Shown here: positions 6,715-54,816 of the stretch, piece after piece
How positions within the stretch are numbered: position 1 is the stretch's first letter
Layout: each line of letters begins with the position of its first letter
DNA from: Giardia intestinalis
Taxonomy: Eukaryota
Assembly: GCA_000002435.2 (NCBI GenBank)
Contig: CM018790.1
Length of the DNA: 64,000 nt
Strand: one strand, 5' to 3'
Made by a program: the position numbers and the translations under genes
Notes under the pieces: model-generated
Seen by the model: only the letters and a program-made list of their open reading frames with translations
Told to the model about the DNA's origin: nothing
The model's database searches: none

Positions 6715-6728
6715 ATGTAGACTTAGGT

Positions 6729-8417: not shown

Positions 8418-8982
8418 AGCTCTGCAACGCCATCTGCACGTCAGCCCCGGGCAAACAGTCGGACTGTTCTCTTGGCCATATGCTCGCTGCTGCGGGGACC
8501 CCGAGCTGTTCTCACCTCGAGTCTTCGCAACAGCCCGGGCAGATGGGTGCAGAGGCAGTCACAGCGCGGCTAAGCCGTTGCCTGCAGGGCATTCTTCCAG
8601 CCAGGGGCAAGGTTTTGCAGCGAGACATGGCCTGCTTCAGACCATCAGGGAGCTCGCGCACGCAGACTACCGACCAGGTGGCTGCCGCCGTGCAAGGCGT
8701 GCGCTAAGATTGGAGTGGAGCGTTTACTGCCTTCCAAGCGGATGTGTTTCCTCAGCATGGTGGTCCGTGTGGTGGGAACGGATGCACACCATGGTTTGCG
8801 AAGGGGGCTCTAGGCTTCAGAATCCCAGTGATCACTTTGTTGCACCTTGCTACACATAGCAGGGGCGACGGAAGGAATCCAAGGGGTGCAGTCTTTGTAT
8901 GATGCGCCATCTGGATGCGCTGCAAGAGGCCCAGGAATTGCAGGCGTACTGCCACACGCGTTCTATGTGACCTGCAGTAAAA

Positions 8983-9618
8983 ATGCCGTCTATGGATGAC
9001 TTAGATCAATTCCTTCAGGAGTGCGACTGCGCCTTACTCCTCATGTCTGAGAAGAACACGAGCGAAGAGAGCGCAGGAAACTCAACTGAGTCTTCACAAA
9101 CAGATGATGAAGGCAGCGTGGACGAGGACGGCGTCACCACGCTTATGGAGGCAGCCAAAAGAAACGACGTGAAGGCGGTGAAGCGCTATATCCCTTATCA
9201 GGCAAGGATGGTGGCGAAGCTTGTCAAGGCAGGGAGAGTAGAGATATACGATGGGACGGCCCTGATGGTCGCTGCGGTGCTTGGACACACCAGAGTGGTG
9301 AAGCTGCTGATGAGGCACGAGCGTTGCATGAGGAGCAGTAATGAATGGACGGCCCTCATGTGGGCGGCACTTTTTGGCCGCACCGAGGTCGTGAAACTAC
9401 TCCTGGATGTTGAGGGAGGCATGCAAATAAACGGAGGTGTTACCGCCCTCACAGCTGCAGCAGGCTTTGGCCGTCTGGACTGTGTCAAGTTACTGCTGGA
9501 GAGAGAGAAGGACGTAGGCGGCGAGTCTGCTCTTTGTATGGCTAGTACACGAGGTCACCCCGAGGTGGCGTCTTTTCTTGAAAATAAGGGCATTAGGCTA
9601 GTGGATCCTTACCTGTGA
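8983..9618 (+). CDS. Ankyrin-repeat protein (Giardia Protein 21.1-like)
   Basis: ATG in the A-rich context gtaaaaATG. At least four ankyrin repeats are present (TALMEAAKRNDVKAVKRYI..., TALMVAAVLGHTRVVKLLM..., TALMWAALFGRTEVVKLLL..., TALTAAAGFGRLDCVKLLL). AGTAAAC lies about 22 nt after the stop (9640..9646). Confidence 0.8.
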   Translation: MPSMDDLDQFLQECDCALLLMSEKNTSEESAGNSTESSQTDDEGSVDEDGVTTLMEAAKRNDVKAVKRYIPYQARMVAKLVKAGRVEIYDGTALMVAAVLGHTRVVKLLMRHERCMRSSNEWTALMWAALFGRTEVVKLLLDVEGGMQINGGVTALTAAAGFGRLDCVKLLLEREKDVGGESALCMASTRGHPEVASFLENKGIRLVDPYL

Positions 9619-9963: not shown

Positions 9964-10841
9964 ATGCACGCTGCTTCGTCTGGATCTGCAACAATAGCTT
10001 TCAGTGCCCCGCAGTTCACCCCCAAGGAGCTCCACGAGGGGCTGGATGACGTGCTGGCCAAAGACCCCACAAGCACAATCTACTCTCTCGAAGCTATCTG
10101 GGCCTCGCTGTAAAGGTCATTCCACTAGGTTACCTGGACAAGAACAGTGCAGACGCCATCAGGACAAGGTTGACCACCCTCCCCGACCTCTCCCATCCGG
10201 GGGTCCTCAGGTACCACCAGGTGATTGAAGACGAGGGCCTCATCTACGTCGTCACGGACTGCCAAGACAAGACCCTCGAGCGCCCCCTCGCCGAGCACAA
10301 ACGAAGGAAGATCCCCGTCCCTATCACTATGATCCTCTCTGTCATGAAACAGATCGCCGCCGCCCTCGCCTACCTCCACAGCGTCAATGGGGCAAACACG
10401 AGAGGCCTCGTCCACTGCGACCTCAGGCCTGCCAGCATTCTTATCAACGCAGACGGAGAGCGCTTCATCATCGCCGACTTCGGCCTCTGTAAGGACGCCC
10501 TGTGGAGTGGGAACATTCTCATAGGAATAATGGCATACGTTGCCCCCGAGGTGCTCCTCCACAACGAGCCCAGCCCCGCCTCCGACGTGTGGAGCCTCGG
10601 GGTCATCCTCTACGAGCTTACTACTCTGAGGAGACTGGACTTCCTGAAAGGCAAGGAGCCGGCAGAGGTCTTCGTCGATGGGTGGAGGCCGGACCTGAGC
10701 GGTGTCACTGATGGCTTCATGCAGAATGTTCTGGAGAGGATCTTTGTACTAGAGCCAGAGAGGAGACCGACAGCCAGGGAGCTGCACGAGACGCTCACCA
10801 CATTCGACATCCCAGTTGGTGAGCTGGGGGTCAGTGCGTGA
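9964..10841 (+). CDS. NEK-like protein kinase with degenerate motifs and an apparent -1 frameshift near 10050..10112 (possible pseudogene or sequence error)
   Basis: ATG at 9964 in the context aaaataataaaaccaggATG opens 49 codons (MHAASSG...IYSLEAIWASL*) in frame 1. The kinase body is in frame 0 from 10050 and includes the track ORF 10170..10841, which starts at TTG. Motifs seen: LAVKVI (beta3 Lys), HCDLRPASIL (catalytic loop with K>R and N>S), ADFGLC (DFG), VAPEV, DVWSLGVILYEL. Confidence 0.55.
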
Positions 10842-11165
10842 TGCTGAGGTACAAGTGCGGATCCTTGAAGATTGCTTTGAATGGCGCTAACGCCAGGATC
10901 GCGCTTCTGGAAGAGGATGTTAAGATTAAATCCACTAGATCGACGCACTTGAAGACCAAAGTAAGGAGCATCTGGCCATGATTAAGGCACTGGAGAATAG
11001 GCTTGCACAGCTCAACATCAGAATAGCTACGACTGAGTCTCTGACCAGCCTCTTTTTGCTGCCCAGGCTGATGCGTGCCGCGCATACGAATAGCACGGAA
11101 ACCGTCTGGATGCTGCTTGAAGAAAGACTCGGCATCGACTAGTGCGACGAGCAGGGGCACGTTGA

Positions 11166-12118
11166 TCCCGTCGAGTTGCTTGTTGGGGAGGAGAGGGGCC
11201 TCCAGGACAAGAATGGCTGGACTACCTGATGATCGCCACAGAGGAGGGCCACACAGAAGCTGCCTCCCTTCTGGTCCCATATGAGAAGGACCTAATCGAT
11301 GGCGAAGGCAAGACGGCCTTGGTGATTGCGGCAGAAGCAGAACATGGAACTGTGGTGGAGGCCATCGACCCAACCGATGAGAACGGCGTCACGGCGCTCA
11401 TGCGGGCTGTTAATAGAAACGACGTGGAGGCTGTAAAAGCACTCTTACCCATCCAGAGGGGGAGGAAAACATACAAAGAGGTCATAGCAAGCAGATGGTA
11501 CATGCGCAAAGGAATAGCTCTGATGATGGCTGCGGCAAGTGGACACGCAGAACTGGTAGAACTGCTAGCAGAGCACGAAAACGGAGAGAAAGTAGGCGGT
11601 TGGACCGCTCCCGTATTCGCGGCACGGTGCAATCGTTCCAATGACCCCCTGGTGGACTATCCCAGGCGCGTTGAGCTTTTGATGGAGTATGAGAGCAATA
11701 TCTCAGAGTAGACGGAGCTCATGTATGCAGCAGCACGAGGGCACGAAGGGAGTGTAGAGCTGCTCAAGCAAGAAACTTGTATGAAGAATAACGAGCATCA
11801 GACTGCCCTCACGTGGACGGTGTGCAATGATCATCCAGAGTGCGTCAGGATCCTACTGAAGGACGAAGGCGGCATGCAAGCGACCAAGGGGGGACCGCCC
11901 TTATGAACGCAGCGTATAGCAACACCGTGGAGTGTGCAAGACTTCTTAAGGAAAACGAGAAAGATCTGAAGACAACCTGCAGCTGCCATGGTTACTCGCC
12001 CGGTACCACTGCCCTCAGTATCGCTAAGAAGAAGGATCACAAAGAGATAGTAGACATCCTCCCAAACGAGATCTACTCTGCTTCATCAAGGTCGGCTTGC
12101 CAGCTCCTGTCCGAGTAA
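11166..12118 (+). pseudogene. Ankyrin-repeat (21.1-like) gene disrupted by an in-frame TAG and a +1 frameshift; further degenerate ankyrin-like frames extend upstream to ~10950
   Basis: ORF pieces 11229..11711 (TALMRAVNRNDVEAVKALL...; IALMMAAASGHAELVELL) and 11721..11906 are in the same frame and are separated only by TAG at 11709..11711 (...NISE*TELMYAAARGHEGSVELL). A +1 shift occurs at the G6 run 11888..11893, continuing into ORF 11840..12118 (GGTALMNAAYSNTVECARLL...). An additional stop- and shift-interrupted ankyrin-like frame lies at 11075..11165. Confidence 0.55.
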
Positions 12119-12960
12119 ACCCGTCCAGAGTCCGAAGCTCGGATGCCGCCCACTCTGGAGAAGAGCCTTGTGCATCCCGCCTGGGAGCCGTTGGGTGCTC
12201 CACTATGCGCTCCGGGGCGTCCCTTCCTCTGGCTGGCTTGGGTCAACCATCGTCTGGCATCTAGTGAGCACCTGCTGTCCCGGGCCTTGCGTCGGTCACA
12301 GCGATCTAGTCTCGAGAGCAATTGACTCTGGCCATGTACTCCGGAGTAGCTTTGTGGTGCTGATGCTCTACGACGGAGATTGCACGCCACGACCCCGGGT
12401 GCCTACCCCGTTCCTCGGGTGCCTCCTTGTCTCCTCGTGGATTGTGCCGTCGGTCCCGAGCATGATCAGAGGGTGCGCTCCCCGTACGCCTCTATCTTTG
12501 AGTCATAGTACGCGTTCGTGGATGCCGGCGGAGTACTCCCATGCGTTGTGTCGGGGAAGAGGCCCATCTCTCTGCTCACGGACCGCAGAAGTGCTCCGTC
12601 ACCCAGCACGAGACCGTGTCGACGCTCACCCTGTGCAGTGCGTCTGGCTCAGTGACGTGTGGGCTGGTCCATCCTCACACCGCACACTTGGGGGTGATGC
12701 TTCGGTCTGTCGAGGCGTCGTCCAAAGCATCACGAGCGATCAAGACCGGTTCACCGAGGCCGTCTCTCTACAACCAGCACCCGTCTATTCGAGGGTGTCA
12801 GGTACTGCCAGCTGCTGTGGCAGACACCCGGCAGGTGGTCCAAGTCACCACTCTCCGGTGCGGGCAGGATCAGTCCGCCTCTGTCAGCCAAGCACTCCAG
12901 GGGCCCCATCTCTTGTCGAGGAATTCATATGGGTCACGTGTGGGTCCATCTTGACAAGCG
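12082..12960 (+). repeat. Dispersed GC-rich repeat R, copy 1 (paralog of 23530..24290); apparently non-coding
   Basis: Direct alignment with copy 2 starts at cttcatc[a/g]aggtcggcttgccagctcctgtccgagtaaa. It is about 90-95% identical over ~700 bp, with a 213-bp 100%-identical core at 12316..12528. Only low-complexity P/S/R-rich ORFs are present (12168..12974). The right boundary is approximate. Confidence 0.7.
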
Positions 12961-22538: not shown

Positions 22539-23546
22539 TCAAATTACTTTACTGCTCATTGACACCCCACTCTGCTTTCCTACTTCGTTGCTATCTGAGT
22601 CGCATTCGTCTGTACGGTCTCCAATATCCGGGTTCTGAACCATGAGCTCCTTATCTTCGCTGTTATCGTTCTTACTCTTCTTTCTCCTGTCCCTAAACGT
22701 GTATATAATTAATGCAACCGTCAAGACAAATAGCTGTACAGTCGAAGAAGTCATTGTTAAGTAGGTCATCCAATTAGCCTTAGATATGATAGCAAAAACG
22801 AACATACATAAGACGACAATGAACTGGATACTTGAAAGTAAGACAGACATGCTTCCTGGTGATTTGACTTTACATGTGTGGTAAATTTGGGGACTGAACT
22901 GTGCCAGGTTAAAGAAAAGGGATGTGATGGACAGTGCCAAAGTAAATCCACGGACCCATGGGGTACACATACCATAGAAGATCACAATTACAGTAGCTGC
23001 TGCGATGATGGATAGCATAACACCTAAAAATAGGAAGAAAGCAAGTACATGACACTTAGCTCTTTGAACATCTCCTTGATCACTGGTAGGCTCGGCTTCA
23101 GATGAGGTTGCATGATTGGTCTTGACCTTTGACACATATAATAAACGGATAGTGAGTGCATACCACCATATGAACCCCAATAGGAAGGCAGAGCTCTGCA
23201 GAAAGGGGATCATGTTTGAATAGCATAAGCCTGGGTTTTGAGGACAGGCGAAAATTTGAGGAAGGGTGGTGATATAGAATACACTAGTGGAAAATAAGAG
23301 AGAGTATGAAGCAACGTGTAAAAAGATGAACGAAATACTGTAAACGGATCTTGTTCGGTACATCTTCACCAGCTGAGGAATATATGAGATAACGATTAAA
23401 GCTAGGAGAATGCTGTTGAATATCGTAACAGGAAGGCTTATATTAGCTAGATAAGGTGTGTAGTCGTATGGATCTATAAACGTGCCGTCTTCAATATAGC
23501 AAGGGTTACGTATCATTTTAATAAAGCTCAATTTGCTCTTCTTCAT
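22539..23546 (-). CDS. PQ-loop repeat multipass membrane protein (cystinosin/LCT-family-like)
   Basis: 335 aa with about 7 predicted TM helices and two PQ motifs in the expected positions (VISYIPQLVKMYRTRSV and AQFSPQIYHTCKVKS). The ATG (MKKSK) at 23546 overlaps the left end of repeat R copy 2. Confidence 0.6.
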   Translation of the reverse strand: MKKSKLSFIKMIRNPCYIEDGTFIDPYDYTPYLANISLPVTIFNSILLALIVISYIPQLVKMYRTRSVYSISFIFLHVASYSLLFSTSVFYITTLPQIFACPQNPGLCYSNMIPFLQSSAFLLGFIWWYALTIRLLYVSKVKTNHATSSEAEPTSDQGDVQRAKCHVLAFFLFLGVMLSIIAAATVIVIFYGMCTPWVRGFTLALSITSLFFNLAQFSPQIYHTCKVKSPGSMSVLLSSIQFIVVLCMFVFAIISKANWMTYLTMTSSTVQLFVLTVALIIYTFRDRRKKSKNDNSEDKELMVQNPDIGDRTDECDSDSNEVGKQSGVSMSSKVI

Positions 23547-24290
23547 CGAGGTCGGCTTGCCAGCTCCTGTCCGAGTAAATCCGTCCAGGATCCGAAGCTC
23601 GGATGCCGTCCACTCTGGAGAAGAGCCTTGTGCCTCCTCGCCCGGGAGCCGTTGGGTGCCCCACTATGCGCTCCGGGACGTCCCTCCTCTCTGGCCCGTC
23701 GGGGTCAACCATCGTCTGGCATCTAGTGAGCACCCGTTGTCCCGGACCTGCCGTCGGTCACAGCAGTCTGGCCTCAGAGCAATTGACTCTGGCCATGTAC
23801 TCCGGAGTAGCTTTGTGGTGCTGATGCTCTACGACGGAGATTGCACGCCACGACCCCGGGTGCCTACCCCGTTCCTCGGGTGCCTCCTTGTCTCCTCGTG
23901 GATTGTGCCGTCGGTCCCGAGCATGATCAGAGGGTGCGCTCCCCGTACGCCTCTATCTTTGAGTCATAGTACGCGTTCGTGGATGCCGGGGGACAGCTCC
24001 TATGCGCTGGTATTGGGGGAGAAGTATGGTCCTCTGCTCATGGATCGCAGAGGTGCTCTTGCAGGCGGTCCGTCACCCAGCACGAGATCATGTCGGCGCA
24101 TCATTCTATGCAGTGCGTCTGGCTCAGCGACGTGTGGGCTGGTCCATCCTCACACCGCACACTTGGGGGTGATGCTTCGGTCTGTCGAGGCGTCGGTCCA
24201 GGGTCATCGACTGCTGGGACCCTCCACCATCAGGGTGGTAGACCAAGGAGAGGCGCCACTGATAGACGACGCAGATGGGTAAGTAAGCTA
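23530..24290 (+). repeat. Dispersed GC-rich repeat R, copy 2 (paralog of 12082..12960)
   Basis: Same orientation as copy 1. The 100%-identical core is at 23777..23989. It lies between the PQ-loop gene start and the 3' end of VSP 24541..26724. ORF 23533..24282 is low-complexity and is judged spurious. Confidence 0.7.
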
Positions 24291-24540: not shown

Positions 24541-26724
24541 CTACGCCTTCCCCCTGCAGATGAACCACCAGCAGAGGAACCCTACGAGACCAGCCACAAC
24601 GACGATGACAGCCACGGAGATCCCCGCGATAGCGCCCGCGCTGAGACCGCTCTTGTTGGTGTTCTGTATGAGGTAGCAGAGGACGGAGCCAGTACTAGAC
24701 GATGGAGGAGCGCAGTTTAGGCAACCCTTAATACCAGTGACCCCATTGCTATCACTTTCGCAGGATGTGCACGCACCTTCTCCTGATGCGGTCTTGTAGT
24801 ATCCTGTAGCACACGCCTTACATGTTGTAGCTGCTCCATTACATGTTTCGCAGCTGGAATCACACTTTGTGCATGCACTTGCACTCTTTACATATCCGTC
24901 CAGACACGTAGTACAGTCGGTACTGCTGGTACATTCCTTACACCCTTCAGAACAAACTGTAAGGGTACCTGAATCCAACTTGTAACCATCTGCAGCTTTT
25001 TGACACGTACCACCATTTGGTGCACTAATGCAAACCGTCTTACCGGGATACTTGACTGTTTCATAGCACCCTCCGTTCATCTTAAAGTAGTTATCGGCAC
25101 ACGTTCCACAAACACCATTCTGAATAGGCGAGTCGTTGCACGTAGGTGTGGCGCGGCTAGCCTTTGGTGCACAGACGCCATTTTGAGGATACTCTGTCGT
25201 TGTGGCGCACTCAGAGCAGTAGCTAGCACCATCGATAGTGAGCCCACACGTTTTGCAGGCGCCGCTGCCTTGGCCCGTTGTGCAGCCTTCTCCGCACGTG
25301 CCCTTAGTACCGTCGTCCCCGTACCTAAGTGCTTTTCCAGTGGGACACTCGGTGCAGTCGCTGGCAGTGCCTGCGCTGCATGTCTTGCAGCTTTCGTGGC
25401 ACGGAGAGCATGCGTCGCCGTTTTTATAGAATCCGTCGCTGCATGCTTGGCACTGCCCTTGCCCATCGCAAGTCTTGCAGTTAGCCGCAGTGCACTCTTT
25501 ACAGATTTTCTTTGCTCCTTCGGTAGCTCCATAGTAGTTTCCAATCTTAGCGCAGCTGTCTATGCACTGGCTTGTCGGCGTGAGATATGTGCTACTATCA
25601 CAGTCTGTGCAGACCTCGTTCTCCTTTCCTTCGTTGCTGCACGCCTTGCATCCGGGGGTCTTGCAGTTGCTTACCGCCTCGCACGTAGTTTTGTCGGCAC
25701 TAGGCTTGTATCCATTCGTGCAAGCGATGCACGTAATAGTGGGCGCTATCCTTCCTTGGTCTGTCGGAGTACACGCCGCGCACTTATCGACGCCCCCATT
25801 CGCAGCGTCACCGCATAAAACACACCTGTTTCCGCTCTGGGAATTTTCTACCGGAAAAGAGTCGGGTGAGCATGCGCTTTGCTCTACACATGTCGTTGTG
25901 CCATCAGCGGCCGTTTTGAGATAGTTATTGCCACCGCACTTCGTGCAAGCAGGCTTGGCTTGATCGGGACTTGGCGGCGTGCACTTTTCGCAACTCGCCA
26001 CCCCAGTGGTTACATCTCCGCATGCAAAGCATCTCTTGCCATTGTCAGAGTCCTCCTTCGAAAACTCAGTGTCAGGCGTGCAGCCCTCCCCACAAGTACC
26101 AGTCGTTGCAAGGTACTTATCCTGGCCGCACCTGGTGCACTTGGCGTCTCCGCCGGCAGCGTCTGTCAGCGCCGCCCCGTCGCATCTCTCGCAGTGCTGC
26201 ACCCCCCTGTACGTTTTGCCGCTGTCGGTGAACCCGGTCGTGTCCGAGCACGATACCACAGAGTCCTTGGTATTCGCCCTCAGCGGGTTGAGGAAGTACC
26301 CCGGGGCCGCCTCGGTGCACTTTCCCTCAGAGGCTTGCGTGCACATGCTCTGTCCTGGTGCAGTGTCCTTTGAATAACAGCCGTCCTTGTACATGAAGGA
26401 GGCGCCTCCGCACTGCGTGCACTTCCCCTGGCCCTTTGCCGGGCAGAGCGTTTTGCTTTGCCCCTCAGCGTTGACGTCTGCACACTGGCCGTTCACGGGG
26501 GCGTAGTTTGCTCCGTTGCACTCGGAGCAGTATTGTTCTTGGCCGATGGTGACGCCACACGTTTTACAGCTCCCATCGCTGCCTGATCCGTCTGCCTGAC
26601 ACGCAGCCCGTGCCAGCTGAAGGATGACGATCGCGAGCAAAAATCTGCCGAACATTGGGCCGCCGACCTGCTGGGTGGCGCCGGCCTTCCCCGGGAGAGG
26701 CGGGGTCGTCTGATGTGCCGACAT
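24541..26724 (-). CDS. Variant-specific surface protein (VSP), full length
   Basis: 727 aa, rich in CXXC motifs. It ends with a TM helix and ...FICRGKA. AGTAAAC lies 13 nt after the stop. The signal peptide MFGRFLLAIVILQLARA begins at the second Met (alternative start 26655). A 23-codon in-frame extension (MSAHQTTPPLPGKAGATQQVGGP) is conserved with the other VSP. Confidence 0.9.
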   Translation of the reverse strand: MSAHQTTPPLPGKAGATQQVGGPMFGRFLLAIVILQLARAACQADGSGSDGSCKTCGVTIGQEQYCSECNGANYAPVNGQCADVNAEGQSKTLCPAKGQGKCTQCGGASFMYKDGCYSKDTAPGQSMCTQASEGKCTEAAPGYFLNPLRANTKDSVVSCSDTTGFTDSGKTYRGVQHCERCDGAALTDAAGGDAKCTRCGQDKYLATTGTCGEGCTPDTEFSKEDSDNGKRCFACGDVTTGVASCEKCTPPSPDQAKPACTKCGGNNYLKTAADGTTTCVEQSACSPDSFPVENSQSGNRCVLCGDAANGGVDKCAACTPTDQGRIAPTITCIACTNGYKPSADKTTCEAVSNCKTPGCKACSNEGKENEVCTDCDSSTYLTPTSQCIDSCAKIGNYYGATEGAKKICKECTAANCKTCDGQGQCQACSDGFYKNGDACSPCHESCKTCSAGTASDCTECPTGKALRYGDDGTKGTCGEGCTTGQGSGACKTCGLTIDGASYCSECATTTEYPQNGVCAPKASRATPTCNDSPIQNGVCGTCADNYFKMNGGCYETVKYPGKTVCISAPNGGTCQKAADGYKLDSGTLTVCSEGCKECTSSTDCTTCLDGYVKSASACTKCDSSCETCNGAATTCKACATGYYKTASGEGACTSCESDSNGVTGIKGCLNCAPPSSSTGSVLCYLIQNTNKSGLSAGAIAGISVAVIVVVAGLVGFLCWWFICRGKA

Positions 26725-46184: not shown

Positions 46185-49100
46185 TCATTGCGCCTCTCCC
46201 TTATCTTGCGGAGGATCGCGCACAATGACTCCTGGAATGGATATCTCCTTCCCAAATGCTGTGATATCTGCAGAGTACTGACTAAGCTTCTGCTTTTCAC
46301 AATAGATGAGTTTCCAGTCTTCGAGAGCAGATGCGCCATTGCCAGAGCCGAAGACAGCACTTGCGTTGCTGATCTTTGGCATGACAATCTTCTTCTTTGT
46401 CTTTATCTTTGTTCCAAGACAACTATCAACAATTATATTAACAAGCCCACGAGACATCTTATCGATAAGCTTTGTTACCACCTCTGTACTGTGTTCTAGG
46501 GTTGGCGATGCATTAATTTCTACCAGCCATACCTGCAGGGCGCTGTCAATGATGAAGTCATACCCAAGCAGTTCAAAGTTGTTATCCGCTGAGGTGAGCT
46601 CGAATCGTGCCGCCTGCACGGTGGTTATTATTATTCGCGCCATGTCGTAGAGAATGCGGTCAGCTATTGTGTTGAACACGGCCTTGTCAGTGTACTGCGA
46701 GTGCTTGTAATCCTCCGCTTTGATGCGCGATTGGTTGCCGTAGAGGTCAGGTCCGTAGAGCTTGGCGTGCTCGCTGGTCTCATACTTCTGCTTATATGGA
46801 CGTGATTTAGCTTTTCTTTTGTCCGTCTCCACAGTCTCTGCATCCTCATCGTTATTTTTATTTTTATTTTCTGTTACTATTAATTTGGATTGGGATTTAG
46901 ATTGGTATCTGGATTTAGATTGATTTTGCGCACGCAAAATATCTACCATTTCGGTACCCTCTGTGCTTGTTGGTGGTGCTCTTATCTTAAAGTCTTCTGT
47001 TTGATGGTAACAGAAATACTGAGGATCCCTTTCTAGGAGGAGGTCCAACCATGGCTTGTCACCAATCATTTTATCCAGATAGTCGGAAAAACTCGTCCAG
47101 TCCCACATGTTTCCCTTACCGAGGAACTCGTCGTCCTTACCAAACTGCTCCGAGCACTTTTGAACGCTGTTGTTGCTGAGGTGGATATACGGGTTCTTCA
47201 AATCGTGTTCATCTAAGCTGTACTTTGACGAGCAAAACCTTAAGTACGGGCTCGTCCACTGAAATATTATCAGCGGGTTGATAGAGCTGACGAACACCCA
47301 CTGACGGATGTCAAACTTGTACCCGCCCAGTAGAAGGGGTGTTTCCAAGTACCGCTGTATTATGTAACGATCAGAGCTGTTGACAGCCGCTTCGTCTGGA
47401 AGCTCAAACTCACTGTCTGTTCCGCCGTGCTCGTCCAGGACTAAGAGCTTGAGGATGTCGTTAGAGCAGAAGATACCGCGACCCCTTGACTTTGCCCCAG
47501 GCTTTCCGATAAAGATATTCTGCATGGAGCTTCTGATCGACACTTGAGGTGCGTGCTGCAGATACACTCCAAGCGCGCGCACCATGTGGTGGTATTCCTG
47601 GGCAGTTGCCGCATTAGCATGTATTTCGTCAGTAGCTGCAGAATATGGATGGCTGAACTGTTCCTTTCTCCGCGAACTGAAGGAATCTGGAGCAGGAGCA
47701 GCGATGGATTCTGAGCCATTAGCAACAGGACCTGCAGTGGTAGCGGGAAACAGTGTTCCCGGTCTGGGTCTACCTTTGGGCCCAGACCCTGCTTCTCCAT
47801 CGGAGGAAAACAAGCTCTGAGGAGATATGGCGCCATAGAAGTCCGGAAGCTTGTACTGACGCGGCAGCCTGGGGAGTATAATGCCCATTTCATACTGCGT
47901 TACGGGAGGCACAACAAAGCGCGTCTTCTTATCCAACTCTAAGTCATGGTGAAGAATGGTAGACGTCAGATACAAGAGGTGTCTATAGGAGATCTGTAGC
48001 TGGTGTATACTGTACTTAAAGCAACTAGAAGGGGTTAGTTCTGTTCGCTCGTTTGTTTCGGCAGTGGAGCTCTCCCAGTCGATCATGGAATCACAGATCT
48101 TGGGGTCGCGCACCCAGTTGAAGCAAATCTTTACTACCTCAGTATTCAGAAAGTCCTCGAGGAAGTCTAGCGTCTCATCATTGGCGCTCATTAATTGCAA
48201 TTGCGCTTGGCTATTGGCGTCGGATGCATTGACTACCCGATACGATTGTGGGAAGAACCTGGTTATGTCTATATCAAAGTTGTTAGGGGACAGGGTCTTG
48301 GTCAGGCCGCTCTTCGTGGTTAGCACTTGTGAGTTAGTGAAATGGTTTGTGTACTGCCACGGATGCAACCTTGTGCGATCAATATCTGCTACTTTAATGG
48401 CAAACTTGATATTAAAGTCTGTTGGGGTGTCCTTGTCGGGGTTAACTACCCAGCCTTTGTCTAGAAAGTATTTTTTGAAGTCCACGTATCCTCCCTTGAA
48501 GATAACGATGTTCCGGGGGTGACTGGGGCCTGACGAATCGCTCGCCAGGCGGACCGTAATGTATGATAGCCTCTTTTCAAACTGCTTGAGAGTGGAGATG
48601 ACAAGGGATCCATACCGGGCCATAATAGCATTATCAGTGCTAGGCACCATAAACATGCTGAAAGAATGCTGTGCCCGTACTGTTTTGTCGGCCTTGCTCC
48701 CTGTTTCTTGTGAATTTGAGGACTTCGATGGTTTTGAGGACTTCAGTGGGTTTTTAAGCAATGGAAGATCGGGAATCTCGGCAGTGCTGCTTGTTAAGGA
48801 GGTTGGAGGGTCTTCATCAGACGTATCGTCGTATCCGTCCTCCAAGGAAATAGAAACCTTCTGAGTACAACGAATTCGCTTAACAATCGATGCATTTATC
48901 AGTCTAGCTTTTATTAGGGGATCAGTGGCCTTTGGAGCTGGATCCAGAGCCATAAAGTTTCTGGTGTAGTGTACAACAGAGCTCAATCCATAGACATACT
49001 CTCCAAAGAAAGGAACGGTACTTTCTAAGACAGGAAGAAGCTTCTGAAGCTTTGGAGAAGGTGCTTGTTTAAGCTCCTGCCCTACAGGCTTCACAATCAT

Positions 49101-49412
49101 AGGTGATCGAGAGATTGACGGTATTTCCCTGTTGGCCGCAGCCTGAGTCATGTGTGCTGCTCCATCAGCTCTTGGCCTGGAAGGCTGCAAGCGCACACTG
49201 CTCACTATCATGGAACCTGGTAGGGACGGCGAGGCCCGCAATTTGGTGCCAGACGTTGCTCGCCGCTTCTTTTTCTGCTTGTGTGGCTTGCCATGTGTTC
49301 TTGCTGTCGTATTACTGCGTCCAGGAGGAGAAGACGACCTACTACTCATCAAAACCGGAAATAATGTGATAAAGGCAGGAAGAAATTTATCACAAACGCC
49401 ATCAGCTCCCAT
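46185..49412 (-). CDS. Tubulin tyrosine ligase-like (TTLL) family protein, second copy in the window
   Basis: 1075 aa. TTL-domain motifs are present: YIIQRYLETPLLLGGYKFDIRQWVFVSSINPLIIFQWTSPYLRFCSSKYSL...NFELLGYDFIIDSALQVWLVEINASPTLEHSTEVVTKLIDKM. ATG confirmed at 49410..49412. Confidence 0.85.
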   Translation of the reverse strand: MGADGVCDKFLPAFITLFPVLMSSRSSSPPGRSNTTARTHGKPHKQKKKRRATSGTKLRASPSLPGSMIVSSVRLQPSRPRADGAAHMTQAAANREIPSISRSPMIVKPVGQELKQAPSPKLQKLLPVLESTVPFFGEYVYGLSSVVHYTRNFMALDPAPKATDPLIKARLINASIVKRIRCTQKVSISLEDGYDDTSDEDPPTSLTSSTAEIPDLPLLKNPLKSSKPSKSSNSQETGSKADKTVRAQHSFSMFMVPSTDNAIMARYGSLVISTLKQFEKRLSYITVRLASDSSGPSHPRNIVIFKGGYVDFKKYFLDKGWVVNPDKDTPTDFNIKFAIKVADIDRTRLHPWQYTNHFTNSQVLTTKSGLTKTLSPNNFDIDITRFFPQSYRVVNASDANSQAQLQLMSANDETLDFLEDFLNTEVVKICFNWVRDPKICDSMIDWESSTAETNERTELTPSSCFKYSIHQLQISYRHLLYLTSTILHHDLELDKKTRFVVPPVTQYEMGIILPRLPRQYKLPDFYGAISPQSLFSSDGEAGSGPKGRPRPGTLFPATTAGPVANGSESIAAPAPDSFSSRRKEQFSHPYSAATDEIHANAATAQEYHHMVRALGVYLQHAPQVSIRSSMQNIFIGKPGAKSRGRGIFCSNDILKLLVLDEHGGTDSEFELPDEAAVNSSDRYIIQRYLETPLLLGGYKFDIRQWVFVSSINPLIIFQWTSPYLRFCSSKYSLDEHDLKNPYIHLSNNSVQKCSEQFGKDDEFLGKGNMWDWTSFSDYLDKMIGDKPWLDLLLERDPQYFCYHQTEDFKIRAPPTSTEGTEMVDILRAQNQSKSRYQSKSQSKLIVTENKNKNNDEDAETVETDKRKAKSRPYKQKYETSEHAKLYGPDLYGNQSRIKAEDYKHSQYTDKAVFNTIADRILYDMARIIITTVQAARFELTSADNNFELLGYDFIIDSALQVWLVEINASPTLEHSTEVVTKLIDKMSRGLVNIIVDSCLGTKIKTKKKIVMPKISNASAVFGSGNGASALEDWKLIYCEKQKLSQYSADITAFGKEISIPGVIVRDPPQDKGEAQ

Positions 49413-49548
49413 GGTGGGATCGGCGTATGCACGCTAGTGGGACCATTATGGACCACTATGCACATAGATAACGATTCCAGTTAACGACTCGCATCCCTTT
49501 CTCTTTCCAATAACAATTCTCCGGCATCTCAAAGGTTAAAAAGGCACT

Positions 49549-51171
49549 ATGGTGGTTTCCCCCCATCATCTGAAGCGCCAGCGAATACCGCGCTTTCAAC
49601 GTATAGAGCCTGTTTCAAACCGCATGGTTGTGGACTCTCTCTCCAAAACGCGCAGGTCTCGATCATACCAACGCGGCTCTATTGCGATGCCTCACCTTTA
49701 CAATAACAGGGTGTATGCTCCTCCCCGGCCAAAAGTGGAGATGATGGGGGTAGAGCCCACAACCTGTGAGATAGCTCTCATATTCATCAACAGCATATTC
49801 GCTGCATTTTCCTCCATGTATGTTAATGACTCCATAGCGCCTTTGAGTGTTTACTTGACAAAGTACTACGAAAACATAAATGATGAGCTTATTGGCTGGC
49901 TCTCATCGGTGATATTCTGCCCGTCTCTCTTCATGGCCCTTGTCATTGCGCCCTTCATAAACCGCTATGGGCCCATGAATGTCGGCATTTTTTGCCATAT
50001 CTGGTTCATAGTAACAACTATCATAATGCCCTTCATTCAACACAACTATGTGGCTCTGCTGATCATGCGTATTGTCTTTGGTTTGCTATCCGAGCCTTCA
50101 TGGCTCGTACAATCTGCGCTCATTGCAAAGTATATGCCTTCTAGATTGGAATCTCTGGGCTTTGGGGTCTGTATGAGCATCTCAACCTCAGCGAATCTAT
50201 TGGGATTTGGGTTTATCCCGCCCCTATTTTCAAAGATTGACATCCACAAAATTCAGCATCCCATAAATAGACAAGATCCATTATTTCTCGAGTTTGAAAA
50301 TAAAATCAAATTGGCCTACTGGCTCAATGTTGTCGTGTGTGTAATCTCCTTCGGTATTTATCTTGCATGCGGACTACCTCTGTTGCGCATTGACAAAGCC
50401 ATCAAAAAGATCAACCAAGAGCGCGAAGACCAGTCGCTGGCGTTTAGACCGGAGCTTCCTGTCTATATGGATAAAAAGATTTTGCCCACACTCCCCAGCA
50501 AGAGCAATCGCATACCCTTCCTATACAAATTGAAGCATGCATTTATGCTTCCTATGGACTACTGGCCGCCAAATTTAGCTTTTTCACTTCTCCTGGGGTG
50601 TGCATACGGTTGCCAGACGCTGATACTGAGTTATCTCTCTGCAAACAAGAATGGCATTTCAGAGGAAACCGTGGAATATTTTGGCATAGTCCGATCAGTC
50701 ATGAGCGTTGTCGGAGGGCCGGTTAGCGGTTTGCTGGTTGGAGCTATCGGACAGAGGCCACTTCTAACCCTCCTAGGGTATATCATGGCCATTGCAGGCT
50801 TTGTACTAACTATCTTCCTCCCTGACTGGTACAATATGATTCCAATGGCAATGATAGGGTTTGTGGACGGTGGGAGTGCAGCGTTCACCAAGAGTTTGCT
50901 CAGCAGCGTGGTGCCGTATGACCAGCTCAGCATCGCATACGCCATCGACGAGAGCCTGCTCAATCTCTGGCAGTTTGCTCTCCCGCCGATTGCCGGCCGG
51001 ATAAGTGACGTGATGAAGGAGACAGACAGCGCTGGAAAGCCAACCGAGCGGTCCTTTGGTACCCCGCTGTTTTATTCAATTGCAACAGGAATAGGCCTAA
51101 TACCCGCTGTGACTCTCGTCATCAGAGACCGGACCCGCTTTCGTGGGAAGCTGAGCCTCAGACCCGAGTAA
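49549..51171 (+). CDS. Major facilitator superfamily-like transporter (12 predicted TM)
   Basis: 540 aa with about 12 hydrophobic helices in a 6+6 arrangement around a central loop. The basic N-terminal 64 aa precede the first TM, so the alternative start at MMGVEPTT is possible. Confidence 0.6.
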   Translation: MVVSPHHLKRQRIPRFQRIEPVSNRMVVDSLSKTRRSRSYQRGSIAMPHLYNNRVYAPPRPKVEMMGVEPTTCEIALIFINSIFAAFSSMYVNDSIAPLSVYLTKYYENINDELIGWLSSVIFCPSLFMALVIAPFINRYGPMNVGIFCHIWFIVTTIIMPFIQHNYVALLIMRIVFGLLSEPSWLVQSALIAKYMPSRLESLGFGVCMSISTSANLLGFGFIPPLFSKIDIHKIQHPINRQDPLFLEFENKIKLAYWLNVVVCVISFGIYLACGLPLLRIDKAIKKINQEREDQSLAFRPELPVYMDKKILPTLPSKSNRIPFLYKLKHAFMLPMDYWPPNLAFSLLLGCAYGCQTLILSYLSANKNGISEETVEYFGIVRSVMSVVGGPVSGLLVGAIGQRPLLTLLGYIMAIAGFVLTIFLPDWYNMIPMAMIGFVDGGSAAFTKSLLSSVVPYDQLSIAYAIDESLLNLWQFALPPIAGRISDVMKETDSAGKPTERSFGTPLFYSIATGIGLIPAVTLVIRDRTRFRGKLSLRPE

Positions 51172-51563
51172 ATGGCTGGAGCCACATAAAGACTTCATGA
51201 TATCCGGAGGAAAGTTCCGGTTTTAGCAGTAGCCAGACGTGAGTTATGGATGCGCATTGACGATGCAGGACGCTAAACCCCGTTGATTACTTCTAAACAA
51301 TACACCCTACGAAAGCTCGTGCATGCGATGATGTACTCTATCTCGCAGCGATAACTCATCGATATGGCCCAGGTGCTTTCCACTGTTGCGCAAATACTTA
51401 TATGTACACTGCCAAACTGAGGGGCAAAGATGGCTTAACAGAACATAGTAGCAATTGATGGCTGCAGAAGGCTGCTTGTAGCGTCACCAGTGTAGGTTGA
51501 TACAGGTCCATAAAGACACTGTCCCGGAGAATGCTTCAGCAATTTTACAGTGAGACAGGCATT

Positions 51564-52471
51564 TCACCGAATGTGCTGTTTACTAGGGTGTAGAATATCT
51601 ACAATAATAGCTTCAGTGGTGCTAGTGAGGCGGTTCTCAGGATGATCGACTGCGGGGTTGGTACTGTGCAGAGTGCAGCCCAGTGACTTGTGTCCTTCAT
51701 TCAACACCGTTCCAGTACTACGTTCGTTAGGAGAGGTGATGGGTGCCTGGAGTAGTCTGACGAGCTCCCTGGCTGTTGATCTTTGAGTGTGGTCTAGAAC
51801 AAGCACTTTCTTGAGGATACTCCTTATGAGGTCATCTTCAACTGCACTCAGGCTGAGCCTTCACCCGTCGACGAAGACATTCCTCAGGTGCTGCTCCCAG
51901 GAGATCAGGCATTTGAAAGCGGAGAGCTCGTAGGCAATAGCACCGAAGACCCGACGTCGGACGCAGGACCGGTCTCGCCCCTGAGGTGGGTCTTGGGGGC
52001 CATGTATGCTTGGTTCCCAAAATGGCACTCCCATTGTGCAGGACATCCTTCAGAGCCCGAAGTCCGCAAGAGCTGAGCCTGCCATCTCTGCTGGCATCGA
52101 CCTTGTCGGGGTCGTGAAGGTAGGCGAGGATGATGGCAATCTGCTCCATGATGGAGAGCATTGCATCGATAGGGTTGTCGGTTCTTGCACAATCGGTAAT
52201 CGCATCTTGAGGCACCGATCCCAGCGGTCCATGACGATGAAGACAGATCAGGCGTCTCTGAGCACCTGGTAGTGCCTAATGGCATCTAGGTGTGAGCGTC
52301 TGGAAATGGTGGCCAGCACGACCCAGTGGCCTCCGTGAGCTTCCCACTCTGAGCCTTGGATAACTACCTATCACATGGACAGTACCAAAACTGCCCACAT
52401 CAAGCACCCCTCCTCGCATCGATGCAGCTCGTCGGCGGGCACAGGATATCGAGTGCACCGTCCCCGGCCAT
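51564..52471 (-). pseudogene. Degraded paralog of the NEK-like kinase gene 9964..10841, lying immediately 3' of the VSP
   Basis: Minus-strand nucleotide and peptide similarity to the intact kinase extends from the ATG (MAGDGALDILCPP ~ MHAASSGSATIAFSAP) through ...HYQVLRDA, DCARTDNPIDAMLSIMEQIAIILAYLHDP, ADFGL/KDVLHNGSAILG and TARELVRLLQAPITSP. It is split over 3 frames with in-frame stops, and the catalytic-loop segment is deleted. Confidence 0.65.
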
Positions 52472-52603
52472 GACGGTATCAACGGCACTGTGCAGAGCAC
52501 GCTCGGGGGCAGGGGAGCGGCCACCCCTGCTCCCGGTTGCAGGCTGGCTGGCGAAGTATACGAGGCGCACCCGCTTGTCAGGCAGCTGCACCACTAGTGA
52601 CGC

Positions 52604-52610
52604 ATTTACT
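52604..52610 (-). promoter_or_regulatory. AGTRAAY polyadenylation signal (AGTAAAT) of VSP 52618..54816
   Basis: Minus-strand sequence after the CRGKA stop: tgacttaggtAGTAAATgcg. Confidence 0.55.
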
Positions 52611-52617
52611 ACCTAAG

Positions 52618-54816
52618 TCACGCCTTCCCCCTGCAGAGGAACCACCAGCAGAGGAAGCCCACGAGGCCCCCCACGACAGCGACCACAGCGACGGAGATCC
52701 CCGCGATGGCCCCCGTGGAGAGCCCGCTCCTGTTGGTGTTCTGTATGAGGTAGCAGAGGACAGGCCCTTTATTGTTGGTTGGGGGAGCGCAGTTGGCGCA
52801 GTTGGCGACGCCGGTGATGGATCCGCCGTCGCTCTTGTCGCATGCTATGCACTTTTCTTTGGACAGGTAGTACCCTGCAGCGCACACCGTGCACTTGGTG
52901 GCGTCGTCCGCATTGCACTCGGAGCACCCAGTGGCGCAGGGAACGCACTTCTTAGTGTTACCGCCAGTCTTAGCATATCCAGCCTTGCACGTGTCGCACT
53001 GGTCCTGGCTGGTGCACGTCTTACATCCGGCCGAGCAAGTGATGAGCGCGCCGTTATTCAGTTTGTACCCGTCGGCCGGAGTCTGACAGGTATCGCCGGC
53101 CGGTGCTGCCTCCTCACAGACGTTCTTTCCAGGGAACTTAGTCGTCTCGTAGCAGCCCCCGTTCATACGAAGAAATCCGTTGGTGCATGAATTACACATA
53201 CCCTTGGCAACGCTTCCAGCCTTACAAGTGGCTGCAGCACGGACAGTTGTTGAGCTACAGACGCCATTTTGAGGATACTCTGTCGCTGTGGCGCACTCAG
53301 AGCAGTAGCTAGCACCATCGATAGTGAGCCCACACGTCTTGCATGCTCCTGCTCCTGTGCCCGTTGCGCATCCAGCTCCGCACGTGCCCTTAGTACCGTC
53401 GTCCCCGTACCTGAGTGCTTTTCCGGTGGGACACTCGGTGCAGTCGCTGGCAGTGCCTGCGCTGCATGTCTTGCAGCTTTCGTGGCACGGAGAGCATGCG
53501 TCGCCGTTTTTATAGAATCCGTCGCTGCATGCTTGGCACTGCCCTTGCCCATCGCAAGTCTTGCAGTTAGCCGCAGTGCACTCTTTACAGATTTTCTTTG
53601 CTCCTTCGGTAGCTCCATAGTAGTTTCCAATCTTAGCGCAGCTGTCTATGCACTGGCTTGTCGGCGTGAGATATGTGCTACTATCACAGTCTGTGCAGAC
53701 CTCGTTCTCCTTTCCTTCGTTGCTGCACGCCTTGCATCCGGGGGTCTTGCAGTTGCTTACCGCCTCGCACGTAGTTTTGTCGGCACTAGGCTTGTATCCA
53801 TCCGTGCAGGCGGAGCATGTAACGAGGGCAGCCCCTGATCGGCCACTAACCAGAGCACACGTGGCGCAATTGGCAATTCCGTCGGTGCTGTCATTACAAG
53901 GGAGGCATTTATTTCCTGCACTGCTGTCATCCTTGGGGAAGAAGCCGTCTTTGCATTGGTCTTTTTGTACGCACGACGTGCCTTCGCTTGTGGTTTTCAG
54001 GTAGTTGTTATCGGTGCATTTTGTACACTTGATCTTCTTAGATTGCTCATCGTAGCTGCAGGTGTCGCAATTGGCAACGCCACCATTGAGGTTATCGCTG
54101 CAAGAAACACATTTGTTGCCATTCTCAGAATCATCAACTGCAACGAACTTATTAGTGCTACCAGAATCGCACTGGGCTTTATCCACACACGTATTATCCT
54201 TGAGGTACTTATCCTGGCCGCACCTGGTGCACTTGGCGTCTCCGCCGGCAGCGTCTGTCAGCGCCGCCCCGTCGCATCTCTCGCAGTACTGCACCCCCCT
54301 GTACGTTTTGCCGCTGTCGGTGAACCCGGTCGTGTCCGAGCACGATACCACAGAGTCCTTGGTATTCGCCCTCAGCGGGTTGAGGAAGTACCCCGGGGCC
54401 GCCTCGGTGCATACGCCATCTCCGTCGGAACTTAAGCACAGGCTGTGTCCAGGAAGGCCTTCTCCGCTGGAATAACAGCCGTCCTTGTACATGAATGAGT
54501 TGCCTCCGCACGTCGTACAAGCCCCGCTGGCGTGTGCTTTGCAAAGAGCTTTTTTATCCGCCTGCGTCTCCACGTCCTCACAAGCACCGTTCACGGGGGC
54601 GTAGTTTGCTCCGTTGCACTCGGAGCAGTATTGTTCTTGGCCGATGGTGACGCCACACGTTTTACACTTTCCATCGTCAGCTTCTTGGGTGCAGGCTGTC
54701 CGTGCCAGCTGAAGGATGACGATCGCGAGCAAAAATCTGCCGAACATTGGGCCGCCGACCTGCTGGGCGGCGCCGGCCTTCCCTGGGAGAGGCGGGGTCG
54801 TCTGATGTGCCGACAT
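52618..54816 (-). CDS. Variant-specific surface protein (VSP), full length; mosaic paralog of 24541..26724
   Basis: 732 aa, rich in CXXC motifs, ending in a TM helix and ...FLCRGKA. AGTAAAT follows the stop (52604..52610). The first 40 codons are identical to the other VSP, and the ~140-aa block YKPSADKTTCEAVSNCKTPGCKACSNEGKENEVCTDC...GKALRYGDDGTKGTCG is also identical. The alternative signal-peptide start is at 54747. Confidence 0.9.
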   Translation of the reverse strand: MSAHQTTPPLPGKAGAAQQVGGPMFGRFLLAIVILQLARTACTQEADDGKCKTCGVTIGQEQYCSECNGANYAPVNGACEDVETQADKKALCKAHASGACTTCGGNSFMYKDGCYSSGEGLPGHSLCLSSDGDGVCTEAAPGYFLNPLRANTKDSVVSCSDTTGFTDSGKTYRGVQYCERCDGAALTDAAGGDAKCTRCGQDKYLKDNTCVDKAQCDSGSTNKFVAVDDSENGNKCVSCSDNLNGGVANCDTCSYDEQSKKIKCTKCTDNNYLKTTSEGTSCVQKDQCKDGFFPKDDSSAGNKCLPCNDSTDGIANCATCALVSGRSGAALVTCSACTDGYKPSADKTTCEAVSNCKTPGCKACSNEGKENEVCTDCDSSTYLTPTSQCIDSCAKIGNYYGATEGAKKICKECTAANCKTCDGQGQCQACSDGFYKNGDACSPCHESCKTCSAGTASDCTECPTGKALRYGDDGTKGTCGAGCATGTGAGACKTCGLTIDGASYCSECATATEYPQNGVCSSTTVRAAATCKAGSVAKGMCNSCTNGFLRMNGGCYETTKFPGKNVCEEAAPAGDTCQTPADGYKLNNGALITCSAGCKTCTSQDQCDTCKAGYAKTGGNTKKCVPCATGCSECNADDATKCTVCAAGYYLSKEKCIACDKSDGGSITGVANCANCAPPTNNKGPVLCYLIQNTNRSGLSTGAIAGISVAVVAVVGGLVGFLCWWFLCRGKA

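What the first reader, a model, noticed from the sequence alone, without database searches (positions are those of the whole stretch)
51564..52618. Degraded paralogous copy of the same kinase gene, butted against the 3' end of a VSP
On the minus strand, starting about 146 nt downstream of the VSP2 stop, the sequence is homologous to kinase 9964..10841. The homology runs from the start codon region (atggccggggacggtgcactcgatatcctgtgcc against atgcacgctgcttcgtctggatctgc...tttcagtgcc) through ctctccatcatggagcagattgccatcatcctcgcctaccttcacgaccc, which is about 80% identical to ctctctgtcatgaaacagatcgccgccgccctcgcctacctccacagcgt. The copy has lost the catalytic-loop segment and is split over three frames with stops. 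Both kinase copies lie on the same strand as, and downstream of, a CRGKA-tailed gene. This suggests a VSP-linked duplicated segment, or VSP insertion next to kinase paralogs.
Basis: seen in the sequence. Interest (0 to 1): 0.6.

Follow-up and report, generated by a model that had tools for sequence, protein, structure and literature searches.

The report
Dead Nek kinase gene behind VSP
The stretch is a decayed, non-functional copy of a Giardia Nek kinase gene sitting directly behind a surface-antigen (VSP) gene. It was already catalogued as a pseudogene in the 2011 Giardia kinome paper, so it is real but ordinary.

Summary
The window is Giardia intestinalis WB, on the 1.54-Mb chromosome. Minus-strand 51564..52585 is a real kinase relic. 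Against the closest intact relative, a P15 NEK, it aligns over residues 1-366 at 58% identity. It carries about eight frameshifts, two in-frame TGA stops, and a clean 60-nt deletion that removes the catalytic loop. It lies directly downstream of a VSP gene and its polyadenylation signal.

It is already known. Manning et al. 2011, Additional file 1, lists this exact sequence as GL50803_113450 / GK430, Nek-GL4, "Pseudogene".

The two share only 40% amino-acid identity, so B is not a copy of A. B groups with WB pseudogenes GK427, GK428, GK431 and GK450, and with three P15 NEK genes.

All of these that can be checked also sit directly 3' of a VSP tail. A "VSP tail + Nek" unit has therefore been duplicated. 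In assemblage A the Nek was already dead, because the deletion is shared by WB paralogs and by the syntenic copy in isolate DH.

Novelty: already known. Interest is low.

The parts
52618..54816 (-). Intact VSP gene (732-aa ORF ending ...CRGKA). It is 'VSP with INR', XP_001708164.1; the current annotation, KAE8302112.1, is 709 aa.
   Evidence: ORF list. Pfam PF03302 VSP, E=6.5e-195. Exact protein match to WB records. CRGKA at 52635..52621.
52602..52618 (-). VSP-specific extended polyadenylation signal ACTTAGGTAGTAAATGC, overlapping the stop codon. It marks the end of the VSP transcript just before the kinase relic.
   Evidence: Pattern search found three exact matches in the window, all at CRGKA tails; 0.12 matches are expected by chance. 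The motif is described in PMC3091692 and in bioRxiv 2022.03.07.483299.
51564..52585 (-). Nek-GL4 kinase pseudogene (GL50803_113450 / GK430). It aligns to P15 NEK P0001 residues 1-366 over 52585..51615. The last surviving ORF runs to the stop at 51564.
   Evidence: Frame-aware alignment: 180/311 identical, about eight frameshifts, two stops. phmmer E=2.3e-60 to P0001. Exact match to Manning et al. 2011 Additional file 1, row G114. The stitched translation gives no Pfam hit.
52093..52094 (-). Junction of the 60-nt (20-codon) deletion that removed 'NGRPLPGVVHRNLEPANVLI', the catalytic loop. It is followed by a 2-nt deletion (52074|52073) and a WB-specific 1-nt deletion (52051|52050).
   Evidence: MAFFT alignment with three P15 genes, kinase A and contig L008. 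The DH copy shares the 60-nt and 2-nt lesions but not the 1-nt one.
52248..52250 (-). In-frame TGA stop in the relic. It is WB-specific: the DH and L008 copies read through here.
51861..51863 (-). Second in-frame TGA stop in the relic ('VFVDG*'). It is WB-specific: DH and L008 have CAA here.
9964..12118 (+). It is also a Nek-GL4 pseudogene (GL50803_42698 / GK104), made of a kinase domain, a coiled coil and broken ankyrin repeats.
   Evidence: ORFs lie in different frames and there is a stop at 10111-10113. Pfam Pkinase E=1.2e-29 on 10113..10841. Manning row G088, 'Pseudogene', 8 ankyrin repeats. WB-specific 1-nt deletions at 10093, 10830 and 11226 relative to DH, which keeps a 353-aa kinase ORF.

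Best explanation
51564..52585 (minus strand) is a dead member of the fast-turnover Nek-GL4 kinase subfamily of Giardia intestinalis WB. It is the pseudogene catalogued as GL50803_113450 / GK430.

It belongs to a GL4 clade whose members lie immediately 3' of VSP genes on the same strand. The clade spreads as part of a unit made of the conserved last ~135 nt of a VSP plus the Nek gene.

In the assemblage A lineage this Nek was inactivated by a 60-nt deletion of the catalytic loop and an adjacent 2-nt frameshift. That happened before the A1/A2 split and before the unit was copied to other WB loci. Each copy has since collected private frameshifts and stops.

The relic most likely has no protein function. 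It persists as passenger DNA in the gene-poor, recombination-prone flank of a VSP.

Shown: its identity, its lesions, the VSP adjacency, the orthologous copy in DH, and the cassette structure in P15.
Inferred: the order of events, and the lack of function.
For: Organism and locus:
- Nine window ORFs were looked up; eight are exact matches to G. intestinalis WB proteins, several on a 1,539,535-bp contig.

Identity:
- The conceptual translation is verbatim row G114 (GK430, Nek-GL4, Pseudogene) of Manning et al. 2011, Additional file 1.
- That paper reports 30 kinase pseudogenes in WB, 29 of them GL4, and 'rampant gene duplication and pseudogenization'.

Lesions:
- Frame-aware alignment to P0001 and the DNA alignment showing the 60-nt gap.
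- The stitched product no longer hits Pfam Pkinase.

Real sequence, not error:
- 100% identity in an independent assembly.
- The DH copy at the syntenic site is 91% identical and shares the 60-nt and 2-nt deletions, but lacks both WB stops and two WB 1-nt deletions.

Clade and cassette:
- B is 60% identical to P15 P0001 and 74% to WB GK450, against 40% to kinase A.
- All three P15 relatives lie directly after a VSP on the same strand.
- They share 94-97.6% DNA identity from about 135 nt inside the VSP tail through the Nek, while the VSP bodies are about 64% identical.
- The Manning translations of GK427, GK428 and GK431 begin with the VSP tail read out of frame ('SSAGGSSAG').
- GK428, GK431 and GK450 share the loop-deleted 'DPDKVD(A/V)SR(D/N)GRLSSCGLRAL'.
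Against: - I could not read the DNA of the WB paralogous loci (GK427, GK428, GK431, GK450). Their VSP adjacency rests on the published conceptual translations.
- Expression was not examined, so an RNA-level or recombination role is not excluded.
- WB and DH differ more in the relic (6-11%) than in the neighbouring intergenic DNA (4-5.5%) or the core genes (about 1%). This could mean conversion from paralogs rather than simple neutral drift.
- The P15 copies carry HRN in place of HRD. Even the 'intact' ancestor may therefore have been a catalytically inert pseudokinase.
Confidence: 0.9

Rival explanations
1. One reading: B is a degraded duplicate of the kinase gene at 9964..10841, produced by duplication of a VSP-linked segment within this chromosome region.
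For: - Both are Nek-GL4 sequences with collinear kinase-core similarity.
- Both have a CRGKA-tailed ORF somewhere upstream on the same strand.
- In P15, an A-like ARP+Nek relic also lies downstream of a VSP.
- The 3' flank of A (12076..12724) recurs at 89.5% identity next to the 3' end of the other VSP (23536..24200).
Against: - A and B share only 40% amino-acid identity, no more than B shares with other GL4 members. B is much closer to the P15 trio and to GK450, and A is closer to GK434 at 77%.
- P15 cassette DNA is 72-77% identical to B but 64-65% to A.
- There is no significant similarity in the N-terminal or start regions, and no flank homology between the two loci.
- A is 3.25 kb from its VSP, with other ORFs between.
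Confidence: 0.04
2. B is a functional gene whose apparent breaks are sequencing errors, introns or programmed frameshifts.
For: - Some ORF pieces of 80-126 aa survive.
- The 2007 protein numbering leaves three accession numbers unaccounted for between the MFS gene and the VSP. Manning's table flags this row 'N - multiple GiardiaDB'.
Against: - The sequence is identical in an independent assembly.
- About eight frameshifts, two stops and a 20-codon loss of the catalytic loop.
- Lesions are shared with DH, with further private lesions in each lineage.
- The protein accession numbers of the current WB annotation run consecutively from the MFS gene (KAE8302111) to the VSP (KAE8302112), so no protein is annotated there.
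- Giardia has only 8 cis-spliced and 5 trans-spliced introns.
- No Pfam hit.
Confidence: 0.02
3. The relic is kept because it works as DNA or RNA: a conserved 3' homology arm for VSP recombination or gene conversion, or a template for regulatory transcripts of the adjacent VSP.
For: - The VSP tail + Nek is the conserved part of the cassette, while VSP bodies diverge: 94-97.6% against about 64% in P15.
- The WB and DH VSPs at this site are mosaics, with 51-98% identity in blocks, and the DH VSP resembles WB's other VSP at 93%.
- The literature links Nek and ARP genes to rearrangement points.
Against: - The relic diverges 6-11% between WB and DH, more than nearby intergenic DNA. It accumulates indels and stops freely, which looks unconstrained.
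- No recombination breakpoints were mapped inside it.
- No expression data were examined.
Confidence: 0.04

Closest known systems
Giardia WB Nek-GL4 pseudogenes (Manning et al. 2011, Genome Biol 12:R66; 30 kinase pseudogenes, 29 of them GL4)
   Same: This is one of them. Row G114 (GL50803_113450 / GK430) is the same sequence, and kinase A is row G088 (GL50803_42698 / GK104).
   Different: Nothing about the object itself differs. Neither the paper's main-text passages mentioning VSPs nor the parts of its tables I read comment on the position directly 3' of a VSP or on the shared 60-nt loop deletion.
P15 (assemblage E) NEK genes P0001, P0003 and P0004 (the last is GLP15_3047)
   Same: They are the closest ORF-bearing relatives, at 49-52% identity to the raw stitched query and 60% over the kinase domain. 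They have the same position directly 3' of a VSP on the same strand, and the same non-ankyrin C-terminal tail ('...GHESLGCTPYSTSP...').
   Different: They keep a continuous frame and the catalytic-loop segment, which reads HRN rather than HRD. The window copy has lost the loop and the frame.
WB pseudogenes GK427, GK428, GK431 and GK450
   Same: Same clade. GK428, GK431 and GK450 share the same loop deletion. GK427, GK428 and GK431 share the same upstream out-of-frame VSP tail.
   Different: They lie at other loci. GK431 continues into a coiled coil and ankyrin repeats, and GK427 is truncated. Each has its own private lesions.
Pseudogenes between or beside VSP genes (Xu et al. 2020 for WB; G. 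muris genome paper; bioRxiv 2022.03.07.483299)
   Same: The general pattern is the same: VSP flanks are gene-poor and hold NEK/ARP pseudogenes and retrotransposon relics.
   Different: Those reports describe inverted VSP pairs. This is a single VSP followed by a Nek relic in head-to-tail order.
Catalytically dead Giardia Neks (pseudokinases, about 70% of Neks)
   Same: Loss of catalytic residues is typical of the family.
   Different: Pseudokinases retain an open reading frame and a kinase fold. This locus has neither.

Membership tests
Protein kinase domain (Pfam PF00069) | The sequence scores above the Pkinase gathering threshold. | tested here: not met
   The stitched 275-aa translation of B gives no family at E<=0.01. 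P0001 (E=4.4e-27) and kinase A (E=1.2e-29) pass. B is recognisable only through close relatives (E=2.3e-60 to P0001).
Protein kinase domain (Pfam PF00069) | A catalytic loop (HRDLKxxN) is present. | tested here: not met
   A 60-nt deletion removes the whole loop.
Giardia Nek-GL4 subfamily (Manning et al. 2011) | Placed in GL4 by kinase-domain similarity in the published catalogue. | tested here: met
   Exact sequence match to row G114/GK430, 'Nek-GL4', and to GK430_WB_GL4 in the published alignment. The closest relatives are Giardia NEKs only.
Processed or unprocessed pseudogene (general definition) | The reading frame is disrupted relative to an intact homolog. | tested here: met
   About eight frameshifts and two stops against P0001.
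Processed or unprocessed pseudogene (general definition) | The lesions are real, not assembly artefacts. | tested here: met
   100% identity in an independent Logan assembly over 51564..52028. The orthologous DH copy shares the main lesions.
Processed or unprocessed pseudogene (general definition) | No protein product is made. | not testable with these tools
   No proteomic or ribosome-profiling data are available here. The protein accession numbers of the current WB annotation run consecutively from KAE8302111 (MFS gene) to KAE8302112 (VSP), so no protein is annotated between them.
VSP-3'-linked Nek cassette (proposed here) | The Nek lies directly downstream of a CRGKA-tailed VSP and its extended polyadenylation signal, on the same strand. 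| tested here: met
   Window. DH. Three P15 loci. For WB paralogs GK427, GK428 and GK431 the evidence is only the published translations.
Direct duplicate of kinase 9964..10841 | The two are nearest paralogs of each other, and homology extends into the flanks and the start region. | tested here: not met
   40% amino-acid identity against 60-77% to other relatives. The start region is not significant. No flank homology.

The most novel reading that the evidence does not exclude
A specific Nek-GL4 clade is physically coupled to VSP genes as a two-part cassette: the conserved VSP 3' tail and polyadenylation signal, followed by the Nek. The cassette is shared by assemblages A and E. The Nek part is open in E and was already dead in the common ancestor of A1 and A2. 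Its conserved sequence serves as the 3' homology tract along which VSP bodies are exchanged or duplicated. Alternatively, in E, the Nek has a VSP-related function. This coupling is not stated in the passages I read of the papers consulted.
Probability: 0.15. Interest if true: 0.45.

Novelty: already known. Interest (0 to 1): 0.15.

Why it matters
For the object itself, very little. It is one of 30 published WB kinase pseudogenes and fits the known picture of GL4 Nek birth and death next to variable gene families.

The modest added value is descriptive:
- The inactivating lesion is mapped exactly, as a 60-nt loss of the catalytic loop.
- It is dated to before the A1/A2 split and before intragenomic copying.
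- This GL4 clade is seen to travel with the 3' end of VSP genes in both assemblages A and E.

If that coupling holds genome-wide, it would give a handle on how VSP loci are duplicated and reshuffled.

Tried and rejected
- Direct nucleotide comparison of A and B. Only three kinase-core patches at 66-74% were found.
- Self-comparison of the window. It shows no A-B flank homology. It did reveal VSP-VSP mosaic similarity and an unrelated 660-nt repeat.
- Pfam on the stitched relic gave no hit.
- Searching the protein collection for ORF fragments of the WB paralogs. Only one related fragment appeared, P0002 on contig L008. That contig is 98.6% identical to the DH copy of this same locus. I therefore could not fetch the DNA of the GK427, GK428, GK431 or GK450 loci.
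- The syntenic site in P15. Synteny ends 80 nt after the MFS gene, so P0001 could not be shown to be the positional ortholog.
- Replacement of the cassette by a paralog between WB and DH. The divergence profile is a gradient rising toward the VSP, not a sharp block, so this is left open rather than claimed.
- Adam et al. 2010, the vsp repertoire paper, does not mention kinases or NEK at all.
Full report
**Where the window comes from.** I looked up nine ORFs of the window by exact sequence. Eight are in the collection as Giardia intestinalis WB (ATCC 50803) proteins, several on a 1,539,535-bp contig. Examples are MFS transporter KAE8302111.1, 'VSP with INR' XP_001708164.1, TTLL6, and NEK KAE8302115.1. 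In the current annotation the protein accessions run directly from the MFS gene (KAE8302111, 49549..51171) to the VSP (KAE8302112). No protein is therefore annotated in 51171..52618.

**Checking the observation.**
- The minus strand below the VSP stop (TGA at 52620..52618) reads as pieces of a kinase domain spread over three frames: 'VLDVGSFGTVHVIGSYPRL', 'HYQVLRDA*SVFIVMDRWDRCLK', 'LSIMEQIAIILAYLHDPDKVDASRDG', 'LADFGL*', 'AYMAPKTHLRGETGPASDV', 'FGAIAYELSAFK', 'VFVDG*RLSLSAVEDDLIRSILKKVLVLDHTQRSTARELVRLLQ'.
- Against kinase A (10170..10841), tblastn gives E=5.5e-10.
- blastn gives three collinear patches: 45/61, 79/117 and 99/149 identical.
- The kinase-core local score is about 17 sd above codon shuffles.
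- The claimed start-region similarity is not above chance; 29 of 500 shuffles reach its score.

**What it is.**
- A stitched translation finds Giardia P15 'Kinase, NEK' proteins as its best intact relatives: P0001 at E=2.3e-60, then P0003 and P0004.
- A frame-aware alignment to P0001 covers 52585..51615 and protein residues 1-366. It has 180/311 identical codons, about eight frameshifts, and in-frame TGA stops at 52250-52248 and 51863-51861.
- A DNA alignment shows an exact 60-nt gap (junction 52094|52093) relative to the three P15 genes and kinase A. It removes 'NGRPLPGVVHRNLEPANVLI', the catalytic loop. A 2-nt deletion (52074|52073) and a 1-nt deletion (52051|52050) follow.
- The stitched product no longer matches Pfam Pkinase, whereas P0001 and kinase A do.
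- An independent Logan assembly is 100% identical over 46313..52028, so these are not assembly errors.

**It is already catalogued.**
- Manning et al. 2011 (PMC3218828) report 30 kinase pseudogenes in WB, 29 of them in the fast-evolving Nek-GL4 subfamily.
- Their Additional file 1 contains this exact conceptual translation as row G114: GL50803_113450, GK430, Nek-GL4, 'Pseudogene'.
- In the window, kinase A is indeed broken. The frame starting at the 9964 ATG stops at 10111-10113. The kinase core runs in another frame. The coiled-coil and ankyrin part, up to about 12118, is split over several ORFs.
- Relative to isolate DH, WB has 1-nt deletions at 10093, 10830 and 11226. DH still has a 353-aa kinase ORF at this site.

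**Is B a copy of A? No.**
- Kinase-domain identity is 40% for A against B.
- B is 60% identical to P15 P0001 and 74% to WB GK450.
- A is 77% identical to WB GK434.
- Pairs from different GL4 groups are 36-49% identical.
- P15 cassette DNA is 72-77% identical to B but 64-65% to A.
- Self-comparison of the window shows no A-B homology outside the generic VSP tails.

**The VSP linkage is real, but with other partners.**
- In the window, the VSP ends with CRGKA.
- It is followed by the VSP-specific extended polyadenylation signal ACTTAGGTAGTAAATGC at 52602..52618 (the motif is described).
- Similarity to the P15 protein is clear from about 52530 and can be traced weakly to 52585, 33 nt below the VSP stop codon.
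- In P15, all three closest NEKs lie directly after a VSP on the same strand.
- The three P15 loci share 94-97.6% DNA identity over about 1,400 nt, starting about 135 nt inside the VSP tail. Their VSP bodies are only about 64% alike over a short stretch.
- Manning's translations of WB pseudogenes GK427, GK428 and GK431 start with the VSP tail read out of frame ('SSAGGSSAG...'), as GK430 does.
- GK428, GK431 and GK450 carry the same loop-deleted 'DPDKVD(A/V)SR(D/N)GRLSSCGLRAL'.
- The duplicated unit is therefore 'VSP 3' tail + Nek'. In assemblage A the Nek was already dead when it was copied.

**Synteny in isolate DH (assemblage A2).**
- DH (GCA_000498715.1) has the same order at the same site: TTL, MFS, relic, VSP.
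- Its relic is 91% identical to the WB relic. It shares the 60-nt and 2-nt deletions but lacks both WB stops and two WB 1-nt deletions.
- ENA contig L008 is 98.6% identical to the DH copy.
- WB-DH identity is 98-99.5% in the flanking genes, 94.5-96% in the MFS-relic spacer, and 89-94.5% in the relic, falling toward the VSP. Inside the VSP it is mosaic, 51-98%.
- The DH VSP is 93% like the window's other VSP, at 24541..26724.

**Synteny in P15.**
- Synteny ends at window 51251, 80 nt after the MFS gene.
- Further along in P15, an A-like ARP+Nek relic lies downstream of another VSP.
- This fits published statements that synteny breaks coincide with VSP, NEK and Protein 21.1 genes.

**Mechanism.** The best-supported reading is a non-functional passenger.
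- A GL4 Nek sat immediately 3' of a VSP.
- In the assemblage A lineage it lost its catalytic loop and reading frame.
- It was then carried along when VSP-containing segments were duplicated.
- It now decays independently at each locus.

The identity, the lesions, the adjacency and the orthology are shown. The order of events and the lack of function are inferred. A role as a homology tract for VSP recombination is not excluded, but the free accumulation of indels and stops argues against constraint.

**Verdict.** The feature is already known from the literature, and interest is low.

Noticed in passing
It has WB-specific 1-nt deletions at 10093, 10830 and 11226. Isolate DH keeps a 353-aa kinase ORF at the same site. 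WB-DH identity here is only 86.9%, against about 99% in core genes.
   Followed up: yes
L012 (DH contig AHGT01000003.1) 12050..15189, inserted at the point matching window ~51586-51597: DH carries a 3,140-bp, 60% GC insertion exactly at the 3' end of the Nek relic. It encodes a reverse transcriptase (Pfam RVT_1). Its ends are inverted repeats of roughly 100 nt, judged by eye. It is flanked by a 15-bp direct duplication, GGTGTAGAATACTTA. It looks like a mobile-element insertion that WB lacks. A 38-nt piece of its terminal repeat also occurs at window 5765..5802.
   Followed up: partly
window 12076..12724 and 23536..24200 (both +): A ~660-nt repeat at 89.5% identity with no recognisable coding. 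One copy starts at the 3' end of the kinase A/ankyrin pseudogene. The other lies between a PQ-loop gene and the 3' end of the VSP at 24541..26724. It suggests a former tail-to-tail Nek-ankyrin / VSP arrangement.
   Followed up: partly
window 52618..54816 vs 24541..26724 (both -): The two VSP genes of the window are mosaics of each other: 96.6% identity over 53257..53822, 85% over the 5' ends, and 80% over the tails. The rest is divergent. This is consistent with gene conversion between VSPs.
   Followed up: partly
window 6331..6714 (+): A very short VSP-like ORF of 127 aa, with a CRGKA tail, Pfam VSP E=2e-22, and an exact extended polyadenylation signal at 6721..6737. DH has a 238-aa version at the same site. 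It is possibly a truncated VSP or pseudo-VSP.
   Followed up: partly
window 8983..9618 (+): Ankyrin repeat protein 1 (211 aa) shares its 90%-identity cluster with a second WB protein, GL50803_112696. This hints that the ARP + Nek-GL4 (A-type) segment is also duplicated elsewhere in WB. In P15, an ARP + A-like Nek relic lies downstream of a VSP (L016 18037..20075).
   Followed up: partly
window 6349..8859 and 52537..53838: Long ORFs overlap on both strands in GC-rich VSP-associated DNA, for example 52537..53190 (+) antisense to the VSP. They are most likely compositional artefacts, not genes. The 448-aa ORF 7071..8417 (-) has no Pfam hit, and no gene was called at the matching place in DH.
   Followed up: no
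L009, L010, L011 (P15): The VSP-adjacent P15 NEKs read HRNL(E/K)PAN instead of HRDLKPxN. Two of the three read DPG or GLG in place of DFG. Even the open copies are probably catalytically inert. P0003 and P0004 are annotated from an internal Met, although tblastn shows the full-length frame is continuous.
   Followed up: partly
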